From: the human T2T-CHM13v2.0 reference genome, Homo sapiens
Assembly: GCA_009914755.4 (NCBI GenBank)
Contig: CP086569.2
Coordinates: 31,168,001-31,232,000, forward strand
DNA: 64,000 bases
Direction: 5' to 3'
Part shown: in pieces, positions 1-64,000 of the stretch
How positions within the stretch are numbered: position 1 is the first letter of the stretch
Layout of the letters: each line of letters starts with the position of its first letter
Translations under genes and position numbers: made by a program
The notes under the pieces: model-generated
Told to the model about the DNA's origin: nothing
The model's database searches: none
What the model saw: only the letters and a program-made list of their open reading frames with translations

Positions 1-1104
1 TATAATACCTATATTAAATATATATTATATGACTATGTTATTAATTACATGTCACATGTGTTATATATTATTTATTTTACATAGAATATACCGTTTACAT
101 ACAATATATAGTATGTTACCTATAATGTATAATTTATTACATGTAAAATAAGGAATGCAATATATTATGTATAATTTATAATATACAATATGTGGAATGT
201 GATATATATAACATATAATATATGATATATGATATAGAGTATATGATATACAACATACAATATATGATACCTAATATATATGGTATACAATATATATTTT
301 ATGATATGTATTCTATATGTTATATATTCTGTTATATATAACTATTTGAAATTATATATAACTGTATAATATTTTAGGTAAATATGTAGTATAATATATA
401 TAACTTTATAATATATTATATATAACTATATATTATGTTATATATACTTTTATAACATAATTTACATAAAATATCATAATATAATATATATTATATTATT
501 TCATATTACATAATATATCTTACATATCACCCAATATAAGTAACATACATAATATTATAATATAGATTATATTATGTTATATTAAATATCATATATATCA
601 TGTAGCATATATTCTATAATATATATTATACATTATATAATATGTATGTTGTCTATTATGTGATATATATAACTATATATATAATTATATTATTATACAT
701 ATAACTAGATAAACATGTAATTCTACATATTTTCATTTATAATATATGGAATTATATAATCATATATAATTTTTTATAGTCTATAAAAAATTATACCATT
801 ATATAAATTATAATATATAAAAATTATAATATGTACTACAAATATATATATTATATATCATATATGATATAGTACCTTTGTTATATATCATAATACATAT
901 ACATGTGTATTATGTTATCTATAATTATATAATTTCATATATAAGATGTATAATATGTATCATATATTATATACGTTATGTAATATATATAGTATATATA
1001 AGCTGACACAGGATAAATATTATATACTATGACATATAAAATATATGAGGTTATATGTTACATATAAGGCATAGCACATAACATGTAATATATATCATAT
1101 ATAA
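1..1104. repeat. Partial DYZ2-type unit (AT-rich segment only), cut by the window edge
   Basis: It aligns with the AT-rich portion of later units and is identical to 9679-10782 at a constant offset of 9678. Confidence 0.85.
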
Positions 1105-1402
1105 TTTTTTTTTAGACAGAGTCTTGTCCTGTTTCACAGGGTGGAGTACAATGGCGCCATCTTTGCTCACTGCAACATCTGCCTCACGGGTCCAAGCGAT
1201 TGTCCTCCCTCAGCCTCCCAGGTAGCTGGGACTACACCACACTGGGACTACACCAGCTGTCACCATGCCTAGCTAATTTTTTGGATTTTTAGTAGTGACA
1301 GCGTTTCACTGTATTGGCCAGGATGGTCTTGATCTCTTCACCTTGTGATCCCCTTGCCTTGGCCTCCAAATTTGCTGGGAGTACAGGCCTGAGCCAAGAT
1401 CC
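1105..1402 (-). mobile_element. Alu element fixed within satellite unit 1. It is CpG-decayed and lacks the first ~12 nt of the Alu 5' end.
   Basis: The plus strand reads as the reverse complement of Alu: poly-T 1105-1113, then 'agacagagtcttgtcctgt...cctcagcctcccaggtagctgggactaca...ctagctaattttttggatttttagtag...ttggccaggatggtcttgatctc...ctgagccaagatcc'. It contains an internal direct duplication 'gggactacaccacactgggactacaccagctg'. Confidence 0.93.
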
Positions 1403-1975
1403 ATATTTTTTAAATGAAAAAAAATTTCAAAGGTACTCTGCTTGGTACAATAATCAAATGTATAAACTGAGGAATAAAACATAACCAGGAAACCTACTTA
1501 TAACTGCATATGGAAAATACAGAGGATAATTTTTTAAATAACATATTTTGAAAGCCTTAACTAGTAATTTGAAGAGTTGGCATTTGAAAGGCCAGTATGA
1601 ATATACCTTCAAAGCAGCAACACAGGTTCCCCATGAGAAAAAGCAAACTCAGGGAAAATAAAACCACAAAGGTTCAATCTCTTCTGACCTTTGAAAGACA
1701 CAGCACAGACAGTGGTCCTTAGCACGAAGAGCAGGAGACCCCTAATTCCGTCACCATGGCGATAGGGCATAAACATTGCTGGGTGAGGGCACAATCCACA
1801 TTGTGAGGTCCAACTGCTGCCAGGAAGACAGGAGTGCTTTTACATAGACCGAAAGGTCATTGAAGGCTCAGAGTTTTGTTTCAAGAACTGAATCCCAAGC
1901 CAAAACGTTATTAGGCTGCGCTTCTTAAAACAAGTTATGAGATGGGAAAACGGGCACCCACAAACATACGTATAC
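1403..1975. repeat. Representative non-Alu, non-AT 'mixed-composition' segment of the DYZ2-type unit (~570 bp, ~40% GC)
   Basis: It lies between the Alu 5' end and the start of the AT-rich run, and it recurs in every unit. It contains the recurring 61-codon minus-strand ORF (1609-1794). Its origin is not recognisable by eye. Confidence 0.6.
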
Positions 1976-61600: not shown

Positions 61601-62164
61601 GTGAATAGAATCGAACTAAATCGAATGGAATGGAATTGATAGGAACGGAATGGAAAGGAATGCAATGATTTGGCATGGAATGGAATCGAATGGCATCGAA
61701 TGGAATGGAATGGAATGCAATGGAATGGAATGTATTAGAATGTAATGAACATTAATGGAATGTACTCGAATGGATTCGACTGGAATGGAATGTTCTGGAA
61801 GTGAATGGACTCCAATGGAATGGATTCGAAAGGAATGGAATCGAATGGAATGGAATCTAATGGAATGGAATTAAATGGAAATGAATCAAATTGAATAGCA
61901 CGGAATTGAATTGAATGCAATCGAATGCAATGGAATCTAATGAAACGGAAAGGAAAGGAATGGAATGGAATGGAATGGGCTGGAATGGAAAGGAATCGAA
62001 ACGAATGGAATGGAATCGAACTGAAGAGACTGGAATGGAATGCACTGGAATGGAAGGGAGTGTAATGGAAGGTTCTCGAAAAAAATGGAATCGAATGGAA
62101 TGGAATTGAATGGAACGGAATAGAGTCGAATGGAATTGAATGGAATGGAATGGACTAGAGTGAA
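58601..62164 (+). repeat. DYZ1-type unit (3564 bp)
   Basis: Landmark phase. Confidence 0.85.
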
Positions 62165-64000
62165 ATGGAATCGAACCACAAGGAATGGACAGGAATAGAA
62201 TGGTCTCGAATTGAATGGAATCGTATGGAATGGCATCAAACGGAATGGAATGGACAGCCACGGAATGGAATGCACTCGAATGCAATGGAGTCGAAACTAA
62301 TGGACTGGAATAGAATGGACTCGACTGGTACGGACTGCAATGGAATGGAATCGAATGGAAGGGAATCGAACGGAATGGACTCGAAGGGAAAAGACTGCAA
62401 TGGAAAGGTCTCGAATGGAATGGAAATTAATGGAATGGAATGGAATCGAATGAAATGGAGTCAAAAGGAATGGAATCGAATGGCAAGAAATCGAATGTAA
62501 TGGAATCTCAAGGAATTGATGTGAACGGAACGGAATGGAATGGAATCCAAAGGAATGGAATAGAATGGAATGGAATCGAATGGAAAGGACTCGAATGGAA
62601 ATCACTCGAATAGAATGCAATTTAATAAAATAGGATCAAATGTAATGGAATGGAATGGAAAGGAATAGAAACGAAAGGAATGGAGACAGATGGAATGGAA
62701 TGGAACAGAGAGCAATGGTATAGAATGGAATGGAATCATCTGGAATGGAATTGAATGGAATGGAATAATATGAAATGGAATGGAATGGAATGGAATGGAA
62801 TGCCCTTGAATTAAATGGACTGGAATGGAATGGACTCGAACAGAGTGGAATGGAAAGTGTTGAGATAGAATGGAATGGACTCCTTTGGAATGGTGTAGTA
62901 TGCAATGCAATCGACTGGCAGGGAATCAAAAGGAATGTAATGGAATGGATTGGACTGGAATGCAATGGACTCGTATAGATTGGAAACGGAATGCAAAGGA
63001 ATGGAATGGAATAGTATGGAATGGAATGGAAAGGAATGGAGTGGAATAGACTAGAGTGGAATGGAATGGACTGGAAAGCAATGGACTGGAATGGAACTTT
63101 CTTGAATGGACTGGAATCAAACGGAATGGAATGCAATGCAATCAAATGGCATGGAATAAAATAGAATGAAAGAGAATCAAATGGAATTGAATCGAATGGA
63201 ATCGAATGGATTGGAAAGGAATAGAATGGAATGGAATGGAATTGACTCAAATGGAATGGACTAGAATGGAATGGATTCGAATGGAAGGCAAAGGAATGGA
63301 ATCTATTGGAATGGACTGTAATGGAATGGAATGGAAGGGATTGGAATGGACTCGAATGGAATGGACTGCAATAGAAAGGATTCGAATGGAATGAAAAAGA
63401 ATTGAATGGAATAGAACAGAGTGCAATCAAATCGAATGAAATGGAATGGAATAGAAAGGAATGGAATGAAATGGAATGGAAAGGATTCGAATGGAATGCA
63501 ATCGAATGGAATGGAATCGAACGGAATGGAATAAAATGGAAGAAAACTGGCAAGAAATGGAATCGAAATGAATGGAGTGTTATGGAACGGACTAAAAAGG
63601 AATTGAATGTAATAGAATGGAGTGGAGTGGACTCGAATATAATGGACTGGAATGGAATGAAATCACATGGAATGGGAACGAATGGAATGGAATGGAAAGG
63701 AATGGAATCGAATGGAAAGGAATCGAATGGAAGGGAATGAAATTGAATCAACAGGAATGGAAGAGAATAGAATAGACGGTAATGGAATGGACTCGAATAG
63801 AATGGACACGAATGCTCAAATTGAATGGACTCGAATGGAATGGAAACGAAAGGAATGTCATCGAATGGAATTGAATCGATTGGAATGAAATCGCATAGAA
63901 TGGAGTGGAATCAAATGGAATTGAATCGAAAGGAAAGGAAGCGAATGGACTGAAATGAAATGGAATGGAATTGAATGGAAAGTAATGCAATGGAATAGAA
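62165..64000 (+). repeat. Partial DYZ1-type unit, cut by the window edge
   Basis: Landmark phase; the window ends mid-unit. Confidence 0.85.

What the first reader, a model, noticed from the sequence alone, without database searches (positions are those of the whole stretch)
1..64000. The window is a Yq12-type heterochromatin block boundary (DYZ2/HSat1B array abutting DYZ1/HSat3 array), not a gene-bearing locus
A 2.42-kb AT-rich unit with a fixed embedded Alu sits directly next to a 3.55-kb pentameric GGAAT higher-order unit. In my memory of the literature this pairing is specific to the alternating DYZ2/DYZ1 blocks of the human Y long-arm heterochromatin. The GGCC spacing supports it: the 2.42-kb units leave a ~2.14-kb GGCC-free fragment (the classical 2.1-kb HaeIII DYZ2 band), and the 3.55-kb unit has about one GGCC per unit (the classical 3.4/3.56-kb HaeIII DYZ1 band). 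No prokaryotic or novel defence/metabolic system is present, and all ORFs in the track are translation artefacts.
Basis: partly seen in the sequence, partly recalled or inferred. Interest (0 to 1): 0.55.

Follow-up and report, generated by a model that had tools for sequence, protein, structure and literature searches.

The report
Human Y heterochromatin DYZ2/DYZ1 satellite boundary
The whole window is ordinary, already-described human Y-chromosome long-arm satellite DNA: an array of 2.42-kb DYZ2 repeats that runs directly into an array of 3.56-kb DYZ1 repeats, with no genes and nothing bacterial in it.

Summary
Bases 1-30732 are 12 full and 2 partial copies of a 2418/2420-bp unit. Each unit holds one 5'-truncated Alu (about 77% identical to AluY), about 575 bp of GC-richer sequence and about 1.5 kb of 85-89% AT sequence. 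Bases 30733-64000 are GGAAT-pentamer satellite in 3524-3564-bp higher-order units with one GGCC each. Published markers identify both. The DYZ2 unit length, layout, 'ACATACG' motif, GC and CpG density match Hallast et al. Of 14 subfamily-specific HSat2/3 24-mers (Altemose 2014), only the Y-specific HSat3A6 one is present (8 exact). All eight published DYZ1 primers map once per unit in the right order. One correction: HSat1B also lies next to HSat3 on chr15p, so the pairing alone is not Y-specific; the HSat3 subfamily decides it. All long ORFs are (FHSIP)n translations of the pentamer. There are no tRNA or Rfam hits and no match to plasmids, phages or E. coli. The window shows footprints of unequal exchange and a diverged DYZ2 edge. 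An independent metagenome contig spans the same junction at 99.2% identity. I could not align to T2T-Y. Already known; low interest.

The parts
1..30732 (.). DYZ2 / HSat1B array: a partial unit at 1-1104, 11 full units, and a last unit truncated at the junction. Units are defined from the Alu poly-T end and start at 1105, 3523, 5943, 8363, 10783, 13201, 15621, 18039, 20457, 22874, 26578 and 28968.
   Evidence: 20-mer lag peaks at 2420/2418. Unit lengths are 2418, 2420, 2420, 2420, 2418, 2420, 2418, 2418, 2417, 3704, 2390 and 1766. Interior units are 97-99.9% identical to each other. GC is 23.6% and CpG is 1 per 146 bp.
3523..3814 (-). Alu-derived part of the canonical DYZ2 unit: 5'-truncated, covering AluY positions 13-289 plus the A-tail. 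The same element occurs at 1105-1396, 5943-6234, 8363-8654, 10783-11074, 13201-13492, 15621-15912, 18039-18330, 20457-20749, 22874-23165, 26578-26869 and 28968-29259.
   Evidence: blastn against the AluY consensus gives 12 minus-strand hits at 75.7-77.4% identity, E 1e-58 to 1e-64. [quoted passage not shown] Hallast et al. describe a '5' truncated Alu'.
3815..4388 (.). GC-richer 'HSATI' part of the canonical DYZ2 unit, ending in ...CACAAACATACG. It holds one of the four GGCC sites of the unit, at 4008.
   Evidence: GC is 0.28-0.50 in 110-bp bins. CACAAACATACG is present in 11 of 12 units at the HSATI/AT-rich transition. This matches the 7-nt 'ACATACG' that Hallast et al. added to reach their 2,420-bp consensus.
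4389..5942 (.). AT-rich part of the canonical DYZ2 unit (about 1.55 kb, 85-89% AT), with an internal 230-bp sub-repeat.
   Evidence: GC is 0.10-0.21 in 110-bp bins. TRF reports a 230-bp period with 1.9 copies in several units.
1..7900 (.). One copy of a recent four-unit (9678-bp lag) duplication. Its partner is about 9679-17600. The extent is cut off by the left end of the window.
   Evidence: Position-by-position identity at lag 9678 is 0.997-1.000 over the first 7 kb and drops to background after about 7.9 kb. Units 1/5 and 2/6 are 99.9% identical.
22874..26577 (.). Expanded 3704-bp DYZ2 unit. The AT-rich part (unit positions about 847-2130) is present twice; the second copy lies at about 25008-26577.
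   Evidence: 16-mer anchoring to the canonical unit. GC is 0.133 over 24001-26000. A 3431-bp GGCC-free gap is seen here.
26578..30732 (.). Diverged edge of the DYZ2 array: one unit of 2390 bp and a last unit of 1766 bp that breaks off inside its AT-rich part, at about unit position 1775.
   Evidence: These units are only 89.9-92.0% identical to the interior units and to each other. 250-bp tiles here are 82-88% identical to the canonical unit.
30731..30753 (.). DYZ2-to-DYZ1 junction: ...TATCAT|ATGGACTCCTTTGGAATGG.... It joins DYZ2 AT-rich sequence to DYZ1 unit position about 1445-1465, counted from the GGCC site. At most 2 bp (AT) are shared across the join.
   Evidence: Direct comparison of window 30680-30800 with DYZ1 unit positions 1390-1510 and 18-mer anchoring. 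The same junction is found in an independent public contig, PKQM01000722.1, which equals window 29574-31414 at 99.19% identity with no gaps.
30733..64000 (+). DYZ1 / HSat3A6 array, with GGAAT on the + strand (the published TTCCA orientation is the - strand). It holds about 9.2 units. GGCC sites are at 35596, 39160, 43684, 47238, 50762, 54300, 57848 and 61412.
   Evidence: TRF period 5/10/15. Lag peaks at 3528-3569. The seven complete units are 97.6-98.7% identical. HSat3A6-specific 24-mer: 8 exact hits, while the 13 other subfamily 24-mers give 0. GC is 38.7% and CpG is 1 per 35 bp.
30753..32372 (+). First, partial DYZ1 unit (unit positions 1465-3165). It is followed by a jump to unit position 305. 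About 703 bp, including the HaeIII site and the 154-bp PCR target, are missing, with the breakpoints in two copies of a 30-bp internal repeat.
   Evidence: 18-mer anchoring: window 32343-32372 maps to unit 3136-3165 and window 32356-32637 maps to unit 305-586. This explains the 6143-bp GGCC-free stretch. Identity to an interior unit is 97.2%.
39160..43683 (+). 4524-bp variant DYZ1 unit. It has an internal tandem duplication of unit positions about 1000-1949 (window about 40168-41117 and 41119-42083).
   Evidence: 18-mer anchoring. Primers C/F hit twice in this unit, at 41014 and 41980. It has about 992 gap columns against the other units.
35460..35613 (+). Example of the 154-bp interval bounded by the classical DYZ1 sexing primers. 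It spans the HaeIII site and recurs once in each of the 8 units that have a GGCC site.
   Evidence: TTGAATGGAATGGGAACGAATGG matches exactly 8 times on +. TCCACTTTATTCCAGGCCTGTCC matches exactly 7 times, plus once with 1 mismatch, on -, 154 bp apart outer to outer. The primer sequences are recalled from memory (Kogan et al. 1987) and were not found in the paper library.

Best explanation
The window is a piece of the human Y-chromosome long-arm heterochromatin (Yq12). It covers the last roughly 30.7 kb of a DYZ2 (HSat1B) block and the first roughly 33.3 kb of the adjoining DYZ1 (HSat3A6) block. It is non-coding constitutive heterochromatin. It does not work through any encoded product. Its structure is the result of satellite turnover.

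Shown here:
- Two tandem arrays of highly similar units, 97-99.9% identical.
- A clean junction with no spacer.
- Recent rearrangements of the kind unequal exchange produces: a four-unit 9.68-kb duplication at more than 99.7% identity, a 1.28-kb intra-unit duplication in DYZ2, a roughly 0.95-kb intra-unit duplication in DYZ1, and a roughly 0.7-kb deletion between two 30-bp direct repeats.
- Decay of identity to about 90-92% in the last two DYZ2 units before the boundary.

Inferred from established satellite-evolution models and from the Yq12 papers: unequal sister-chromatid or intrachromatid exchange and gene conversion homogenise the array interiors, while edge units escape and diverge. The blocks themselves were multiplied by large duplications that span several blocks. 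That would explain why the same junction is seen in an unrelated public dataset.
For: - Periodicities and GGCC map.
- Unit identity matrices.
- Alu content.
- Unit anatomy, the 'ACATACG' motif, GC and CpG density match Hallast et al. (24% and 38% GC; 1 CpG per 150 bp and per 35 bp; 2,420-bp consensus) (10.1101/2022.12.01.518658).
- Rhie et al. describe DYZ1 as about 3.6 kb, and DYZ2 as a composite of a 20%-diverged AluY, a region of more than 85% AT, and a GC-richer part.
- The HSat3A6 24-mer is present in 8 exact copies. The 24-mers of 13 other HSat2/3 subfamilies, including acrocentric A1, A2, A4, A5, B2-B5, have 0 exact and at most 2 one-mismatch hits (PMC4022460).
- Eight DYZ1 primers from PMC3925983 each map once per unit with at most 1 edit, at the published relative positions. 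For example, C/F is at 1668 bp from the HaeIII site, exactly as published.
- Rearrangement footprints.
- Edge divergence matches Hallast's 'divergent repeat units accumulate towards the periphery'.
- An independent junction-spanning contig at 99.19% identity.
- 17 contaminant contigs in bacterial assemblies are 96.6-99.5% identical to the DYZ2 units, as Rhie et al. predicted for HSat1B.
Against: - No human genome was available, so the window was never aligned to chrY. The chromosome assignment is indirect.
- DYZ2/HSat1B is not Y-specific, since it also occurs on acrocentric short arms. Altemose lists chr7 as a minor second location of HSat3A6.
- One 24-mer per subfamily is a thin sample of the published marker sets.
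- The AluY consensus, the Kogan primers and the classical 2.1-kb band come from memory.
- The DYZ1 edge is barely more diverged than the interior (97.2-97.9% against 98.2-98.4%). The edge-decay picture is therefore clear on one side only.
- The turnover mechanisms are inferred from footprints, not observed.
Confidence: 0.93

Rival explanations
1. The window comes from a human acrocentric short arm, most plausibly chr15p, where an HSat1B array lies next to HSat3, and not from the Y.
For: HSat1B occurs on the acrocentric short arms. On chr15p an HSat1B array is adjacent to HSat3. Hallast et al. treat DYZ2 as 'Y-unspecific'.
Against: - The chr15-specific HSat3A5 24-mer has 0 hits even with 2 mismatches. 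The 24-mers of acrocentric subfamilies A1, A2, A4, B2, B4 and B5 have 0 hits at up to 1 mismatch (B3 has 2 one-mismatch hits). The Y-specific HSat3A6 24-mer has 8 exact hits.
- The 3.56-kb unit with one HaeIII site, and all eight DYZ1 primers in the right order, fit the male-specific repeat.
- On chr15p the paper describes a diverged HSat3 block between the two arrays. Here the first DYZ1 units are already 97-98% identical to the interior units.
- The DYZ2 unit length equals the Y consensus of 2,420 bp.
Confidence: 0.03
2. The window comes from a non-human primate, such as a great-ape sex chromosome or acrocentric chromosome, that carries related satellites.
For: GGAAT-type satellites and HSat1-type satellites exist in other apes. 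No primate genome could be searched here.
Against: - Human-derived markers match exactly: the HuRef-derived HSat3A6 24-mer and human DYZ1 PCR primers.
- The unit length equals the human DYZ2 consensus to the base.
- Contaminant contigs in bacterial assemblies and a metagenome contig, which are most plausibly of human origin, are 97-99.5% identical.
- The ape sex-chromosome paper highlights HSat1A and pCht expansions on non-human ape Y chromosomes. Its text never mentions DYZ1 or HSat3.
Confidence: 0.02
3. The junction is an assembly artefact: a chimeric join of DYZ2 and DYZ1 reads rather than a real boundary.
For: Yq12 is among the hardest regions to assemble, and error flags concentrate there.
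Against: - An independently assembled public contig, PKQM01000722.1, crosses the same junction base for base, with 0 gaps and 15 substitutions in 1841 bp.
- Units diverge progressively towards the junction, as expected for a real array edge and not for a random chimera.
Confidence: 0.02
4. The window holds a prokaryotic or other gene-bearing locus hidden among the repeats.
For: There are 19 ORFs of 150 aa or more, the longest 371 aa. There are weak Pfam hits (Pentapeptide_4 at 37.7 bits, Extensin_1).
Against: - All these ORFs lie on the minus strand of the DYZ1 array and translate to (FHSIP)n-like pentapeptide repeats, that is, the CATTC pentamer read in frame.
- Every Pfam hit is below its curated cut-off.
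- There are no tRNAs and no Rfam family at gathering score.
- There is no match in plasmids, phages or E. coli genomes.
- Every 250-bp tile is satellite.
Confidence: 0

Closest known systems
DYZ2 / HSat1B (human satellite 1B; 2,420-bp consensus of Hallast et al. 2023; '~2.5 kb' in Rhie et al. 2023)
   Same: Unit length of 2418/2420 bp. Three-part unit: a 5'-truncated AluY about 23% diverged, a GC-richer HSATI part, and a region of more than 85% AT. 'ACATACG' at the HSATI/AT-rich transition. GC of 23.6%. CpG at 1 per 146 bp. A variable-length AT-rich part. Edge units are more diverged.
   Different: Nothing essential. Local variants are one 3704-bp unit with a duplicated AT-rich part and one 2390-bp unit, and the last two units are only about 90-92% identical. 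HSat1B is not confined to the Y, so this half alone does not fix the chromosome.
DYZ1 / HSat3A6 (male-specific 3.56-kb HaeIII repeat; Nakahori et al. 1986; Altemose et al. 2014)
   Same: A pentamer-based (GGAAT/TTCCA) higher-order unit of 3524-3564 bp. One HaeIII site per unit. The HSat3A6-specific 24-mer. Eight published primers in the published order. GC of 38.7%. CpG at 1 per 35 bp. Length differences between units come in roughly 5-bp steps.
   Different: One 4524-bp unit with a roughly 0.95-kb internal duplication. The first unit at the boundary has lost about 0.7 kb, including the HaeIII site. I did not find these variants described in the papers read, but unit-length variation is reported in general.
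chr15p HSat1B / HSat3 (HSat3A5) neighbourhood
   Same: An HSat1B array beside an HSat3 array.
   Different: The HSat3 subfamily marker for chr15 (A5) is absent here. No intermediate block of diverged HSat3 is seen. The unit is the 3.56-kb Y type.

Membership tests
DYZ2 / HSat1B | Tandem unit of about 2.4 kb (published consensus 2,420 bp) | tested here: met
   Lag peaks at 2420 and 2418. Nine of 11 full units are 2417-2420 bp. Published value from 10.1101/2022.12.01.518658.
DYZ2 / HSat1B | Composite unit: one 5'-truncated, roughly 20%-diverged AluY, a GC-richer HSATI part, and a part of more than 85% AT | tested here: met
   12 Alu hits covering AluY positions 13-289 at 76-77% identity (consensus from memory). 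GC profile along the unit is 0.4-0.5, then 0.10-0.21. Descriptions.
DYZ2 / HSat1B | 'ACATACG' at the HSATI/AT-rich intersection | tested here: met
   CACAAACATACG is present at that position in 11 of 12 units. The last, diverged unit lacks the exact string.
DYZ2 / HSat1B | GC about 24%; about 1 CpG per 150 bp | tested here: met
   23.6% GC and 1 CpG per 146 bp, against the values.
DYZ2 / HSat1B | HaeIII digestion yields a fragment of about 2.1 kb | tested here: met
   In-silico GGCC-free fragments of 2143-2146 bp in 9 units. The classical band (Cooke 1976) is cited from memory.
DYZ2 / HSat1B | Alignment to the published consensus, Dfam HSATI model or T2T annotation | not testable with these tools
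   No human reference, Dfam or RepeatMasker is available. Indirect support: 17 contaminant contigs of the kind Rhie et al. attribute to HSat1B are 96.6-99.5% identical.
DYZ1 / HSat3A6 | Higher-order unit of about 3.56 kb built from the GGAAT/TTCCA pentamer | tested here: met
   TRF period 5/10/15 over 30757-64000. Lags of 3528-3569. Units are 97.6-98.7% identical.
DYZ1 / HSat3A6 | One HaeIII site per unit (the 3.4/3.56-kb male-specific band) | tested here: met
   GGCC spacings of 3564, 4524, 3554, 3524, 3538, 3548 and 3564. The 3564-bp HaeIII unit is described in PMC3925983.
DYZ1 / HSat3A6 | Carries the subfamily-specific 24-mer of HSat3A6 and not those of other HSat2/3 subfamilies | tested here: met
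   TCGTTTCGATTCCTTTCCATTCCA: 8 exact hits and 16 at up to 1 mismatch. The 13 other 24-mers: 0 exact. Table 1 of PMC4022460. Only one marker per subfamily was available.
DYZ1 / HSat3A6 | Published DYZ1 PCR primers present, in the published order and spacing | tested here: met
   Primers C, D, E and F match exactly. G and B have 1 substitution. A and H have a 1-base indel. A, C, D, E, F, G and H occur once per unit (7-10 sites each); B is found at only 5 sites. C/F lies 1668 bp from the GGCC site, as published.
DYZ1 / HSat3A6 | Classical 154-bp sexing amplicon | tested here: met
   Both 23-mers match exactly and bound 154 bp in 8 units. The primers are from memory and were not found in the library.
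Yq12 alternating DYZ1/DYZ2 block structure | DYZ2 and DYZ1 arrays abut directly | tested here: met
   The junction is at 30731-30753 with no spacer. It is seen again in an independent contig. Only one junction is visible in 64 kb, so alternation itself is not observable.
Yq12 alternating DYZ1/DYZ2 block structure | Units at array edges are more diverged than interior units | tested here: inconclusive
   Clear for DYZ2: 90-92% at the edge against 97-99.9% inside. Marginal for DYZ1: 97.2-97.9% against 98.2-98.4%.
Yq12 alternating DYZ1/DYZ2 block structure | Maps to chrY q12 in a complete human assembly | not testable with these tools
   No human genome collection is available.
chr15p HSat1B/HSat3 neighbourhood (rival) | The HSat3 half belongs to the chr15 subfamily HSat3A5 | tested here: not met
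   The HSat3A5 24-mer has 0 hits at 0, 1 or 2 mismatches.
Prokaryotic gene locus (rival) | Real protein or RNA genes, or similarity to prokaryotic replicons | tested here: not met
   ORFs are (FHSIP)n. Pfam hits are below cut-off. There are no tRNAs and no Rfam hits. There is no match in plasmids, phages or E. coli.

The most novel reading that the evidence does not exclude
This particular DYZ2-to-DYZ1 join is DYZ2 AT-rich position about 1775 fused to DYZ1 position about 1450, followed by a first DYZ1 unit that lacks about 0.7 kb. It may be a single ancient junction that was copied many times by multi-block duplications and is shared between men. If so, it would serve as a countable marker of Yq12 block number. 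The asymmetric decay (DYZ2 edge about 90%, DYZ1 edge about 97%) would then mean that homogenisation reaches the boundary in DYZ1 but not in DYZ2. The one independent junction contig, at 99.2% identity, is compatible with this. It does not show multiplicity.
Probability: 0.4. Interest if true: 0.15.

Novelty: already known. Interest (0 to 1): 0.06.

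Why it matters
It matters mainly as a negative result for the scan. The window is human Y heterochromatin, which has been fully described since the T2T-Y and 43-Y assemblies, and it holds no gene, defence system or mobile element of interest.

Two practical points follow.

1. Pentamer satellites give long ORFs that almost reach Pfam's pentapeptide-repeat threshold. 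They can therefore be mis-annotated as proteins.
2. Exactly this DYZ2 sequence sits as contamination in public bacterial assemblies, including inside a 5.16-Mb RefSeq scaffold. Hits to it in microbial or metagenomic searches should be read as human DNA.

Tried and rejected
- **Rfam at gathering thresholds on the whole window:** no hits. The diverged Alu does not reach the SRP models.
- **ARAGORN:** no tRNAs.
- **Pfam on the six longest ORFs:** only sub-threshold repeat-driven hits.
- **Literature search for the Kogan-type DYZ1 primers, to give them a citable source:** not found in four searches. The one paper returned used '154 bp' for an unrelated STS amplicon. The primers therefore stay marked as recalled from memory.
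- **Nakahori 1986 (PMC311781):** not held.
- **Two reviews, for the 2.1-kb HaeIII DYZ2 band:** neither states it.
- **blastn of the DYZ1 edge and the 4.5-kb unit against a canonical unit:** uninterpretable because of pentamer self-similarity. It was replaced by unique 18-mer anchoring.
- **Junction 38-mer in bacterial and archaeal genomes:** no hit.
- **megablast of a DYZ2 unit against plasmids and phages, and of a DYZ1 unit against E. coli genomes:** no match.
- **Ape sex-chromosome paper, for DYZ1/HSat1B in other apes:** it does not address them, so the non-human rival is excluded only indirectly.
- **Protein homology, structure prediction and related-locus searches:** not used, because there is no credible protein.

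Full report
**1. The observation**

The window splits into two compositional domains at about 30.7 kb. The left has GC of 0.13-0.27 and no strand skew. The right has GC of 0.38-0.40 and a GC skew of about +0.55.

Distances between identical 20-mers in 1-30733 pile up at 2420 and 2418 bp and at their multiples. In 30733-64000 they pile up at 3528-3569 bp and multiples. Tandem Repeats Finder reports one continuous array of period 5/10/15 (ATGGA/ATGGAATGGA) from 30757 to the end of the window.

On the left, clusters of three or four sites are separated by 2143-2146-bp site-free stretches. On the right there is one site per unit, with spacings of 3524-3564 bp and one of 4524 bp.

Each covers consensus positions 13-289 at 75.7-77.4% identity.

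Tiling the window in 250-bp pieces, all 256 tiles match either the canonical left unit (123 tiles) or the canonical right unit (133 tiles). Nothing else is inserted.

**2. Anatomy of the left array**

Counting from the poly-T end of the Alu, the units start at 1105, 3523, 5943, 8363, 10783, 13201, 15621, 18039, 20457, 22874, 26578 and 28968. They measure 2418, 2420, 2420, 2420, 2418, 2420, 2418, 2418, 2417, 3704 and 2390 bp, and a final 1766 bp truncated at the junction.

A canonical unit (3523-5942) has three parts:
- the Alu fragment (3523-3814);
- a roughly 575-bp part with GC of 0.28-0.50 that ends in CACAAACATACG (3815-4388);
- about 1.55 kb of 85-89% AT sequence.

Interior units are 97-99.9% identical. 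The last two units before the junction are only about 90-92% identical to the others and to each other.

Positions 1 to about 7900 and 9679 to about 17600 are 99.7-100% identical. This is a recent duplication with a register of four units, or 9678 bp. The 3704-bp unit carries a second copy of most of its AT-rich part.

**3. Anatomy of the right array**

The seven complete GGCC-to-GGCC units are 97.6-98.7% identical and differ by small indels. I anchored the variants to the unit at 35596-39159 using unique 18-mers.

- The 4524-bp unit contains a tandem duplication of unit positions about 1000-1949.
- The array starts at unit position about 1465.
- The first unit jumps from position 3165 to position 305. 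It has lost about 703 bp, including the HaeIII site, with the breakpoints in two copies of a 30-bp internal repeat. This accounts for the 6143-bp GGCC-free stretch after the junction.

The junction reads ...TATCAT|ATGGACTCCTTTGGAATGG.... The corresponding interior DYZ1 sequence is ...GAATGAACTCCTTTGGAATGG....

**4. Identification against published descriptions**

Hallast et al. (10.1101/2022.12.01.518658) describe DYZ2 as follows:
- about 2.4 kb, with a final consensus of 2,420 bp;
- made of an AT-rich simple repeat, a 5'-truncated Alu and an HSATI part;
- a 7-nt 'ACATACG' at the HSATI/AT-rich intersection;
- 24% GC and 1 CpG per 150 bp.

For DYZ1 they give 38% GC and 1 CpG per 35 bp. They also report that divergent units accumulate at array peripheries.

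Rhie et al. (10.1101/2022.12.01.518724) describe DYZ1 as nested repeats of about 3.6 kb derived from CATTC. They describe DYZ2 as a composite with an AluY subunit 20% diverged from consensus, a region of more than 85% AT, and a GC-richer region.

The window gives unit lengths of 2420/2418 bp and Alus about 23% diverged. The ACATACG motif is in 11 of 12 units. GC is 23.6% and 38.7%. CpG is 1 per 146 bp and 1 per 35 bp. The DYZ2 edge is diverged.

For the right half, Table 1 of Altemose et al. 2014 (PMC4022460) lists one subfamily-specific 24-mer for each of 14 HSat2/3 subfamilies. Only the HSat3A6 (chromosome Y) 24-mer occurs, with 8 exact hits. The other 13 have no exact hit.

The eight primers used by Yadav et al. 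2014 (PMC3925983) to amplify the 3564-bp HaeIII unit of DYZ1 all match with at most one edit. Seven of them occur once per unit; primer B is found at only 5 sites. They lie in the published order. The C/F site, for example, lies 1668 bp from the GGCC site, exactly as tabulated.

Two 23-mers that I recall as the classical DYZ1 sexing primers match exactly and bound 154 bp in each unit. I could not find a citable source for them in the library.

**5. Is the pairing Y-specific?**

It is not Y-specific by itself. HSat1B also occurs on acrocentric short arms. On chr15p an HSat1B array lies beside HSat3, with a diverged HSat3 block between them (10.64898/2025.12.16.694519).

The assignment to the Y rests on the right half:
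- the HSat3A6 marker is present and the chr15 marker (HSat3A5) is absent even at two mismatches;
- the unit is the 3.56-kb HaeIII unit;
- the male-specific primer set fits.

A non-human origin could not be tested directly. It is unlikely, given the exact matches to human-derived markers and the 97-99.5% identity to contaminant contigs that are most plausibly human. The ape sex-chromosome paper did not help.

**6. Related sequences elsewhere**

A 38-mer across the junction has no hit in 185,579 bacterial and archaeal genomes. It has one hit in the metagenome collection. Contig PKQM01000722.1 (1841 bp) equals window 29574-31414 with 15 substitutions and no gaps, 99.19% identity. The substitutions fall on both sides of the junction. 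This shows that the join is real and not an assembly chimera. It also shows that the same join, or a close paralogue, exists in another DNA sample.

A 50-mer from the HSATI part hits 17 contigs labelled as bacteria. Most are 0.6-2.5 kb long, and 14 of them are DYZ2 from end to end, at 96.6-99.5% identity. This is the contamination that Rhie et al. reported for HSat1B. One hit is a 1024-bp DYZ2 piece between two 100-N gaps inside the 5.16-Mb RefSeq scaffold of Nostocoides japonicum.

**7. Genes**

The 19 ORFs of 150 aa or more all lie on the minus strand of the DYZ1 array. They translate to degenerate FHSIP pentapeptide repeats, which is the CATTC pentamer read in frame. Their Pfam hits (Pentapeptide_4, Extensin_1, LD_SV2) are all below the curated cut-offs, although one reaches 37.7 bits against a cut-off of 38.

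There are no tRNAs and no Rfam families. There is no similarity to plasmids, phages or E. coli genomes.

**8. How it works**

This is constitutive heterochromatin without an encoded product.

The sequence shows directly that the arrays are highly homogeneous. It also shows rearrangements in register with the repeat: the four-unit duplication, the two intra-unit duplications, and the deletion between short direct repeats. Finally, it shows decay of identity at the DYZ2 edge.

Two things are inferred from standard models of satellite evolution and from the Yq12 papers. The first is that unequal sister-chromatid or intrachromatid exchange and gene conversion homogenise the interiors and leave the edges to diverge. 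The second is that multi-block duplications spread whole blocks, with their junctions, along Yq12. Any cellular role of the blocks is outside what sequence analysis can address.

**9. Verdict**

The window is a known sequence class in its known arrangement. Confidence that it is a human Yq12 DYZ2/DYZ1 boundary is 0.93. The remainder is divided among an acrocentric origin, a non-human origin and an assembly artefact. Novelty: already known. Interest is low. The only points of practical value are the ORF and Pfam trap and the contamination of microbial records.

Noticed in passing
L007 5897-6920 (NZ_HF570958.1, Nostocoides japonicum T1-X7, 5,162,321-bp RefSeq scaffold): A 1024-bp piece of human DYZ2 sits between two 100-N gaps inside a bacterial chromosome scaffold. 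It is 97.8% identical to window 5810-6833. Its GC is about 0.4, against 0.65-0.78 in the flanks. A human contaminant contig was scaffolded into the genome.
   Followed up: partly
L002-L006 and L008-L018 (16 short contigs in assemblies of Mycobacterium, Bifidobacterium, Streptomyces, Azospirillum, Sphingobium and others): Contigs of 0.6-2.5 kb are 96.6-99.5% identical to the window's DYZ2 units. Fourteen of them match over their whole length; L004 and L017 match over only 879-925 bp. This is human satellite contamination in public bacterial genomes, as Rhie et al. reported.
   Followed up: partly
L001 1-1841 (PKQM01000722.1) = window 29574-31414: A metagenome contig spans the same DYZ2/DYZ1 junction at 99.19% identity, with 15 substitutions and no indels. 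Ten substitutions are on the DYZ2 side and five on the DYZ1 side. I could not tell whether it is the same junction in another man or a paralogous copy.
   Followed up: partly
window 1-7900 and 9679-17600: The two segments are 99.7-100% identical at a lag of 9678 bp (four DYZ2 units). This is a very recent multi-unit duplication. Its left limit lies outside the window.
   Followed up: partly
window 22874-26577: A 3704-bp DYZ2 unit in which the AT-rich part (unit positions about 847-2130) is duplicated. The second copy is more diverged than the first.
   Followed up: partly
window 39160-43683: A 4524-bp DYZ1 unit with a tandem internal duplication of about 0.95 kb (window about 40168-41117 and 41119-42083).
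   Followed up: partly
window 32343-32372: The first DYZ1 unit after the junction lacks about 703 bp, including the HaeIII site and the 154-bp PCR target. The breakpoints fall in two copies of a 30-bp internal repeat, as expected for a homology-mediated deletion.
   Followed up: partly
window 51101-51763 (-) and the other minus-strand ORFs in 33376-63751: ORFs of 150-371 aa are (FHSIP)n-like translations of the pentamer. One scores 37.7 bits against Pfam Pentapeptide_4, whose cut-off is 38. This is a trap for automated annotation.
   Followed up: yes
window 26578-30732 compared with 30753-35595: The two array edges are asymmetric. The last DYZ2 units are about 90-92% identical to interior units. 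The first DYZ1 units are still 97.2-97.9% identical to interior units.
   Followed up: no
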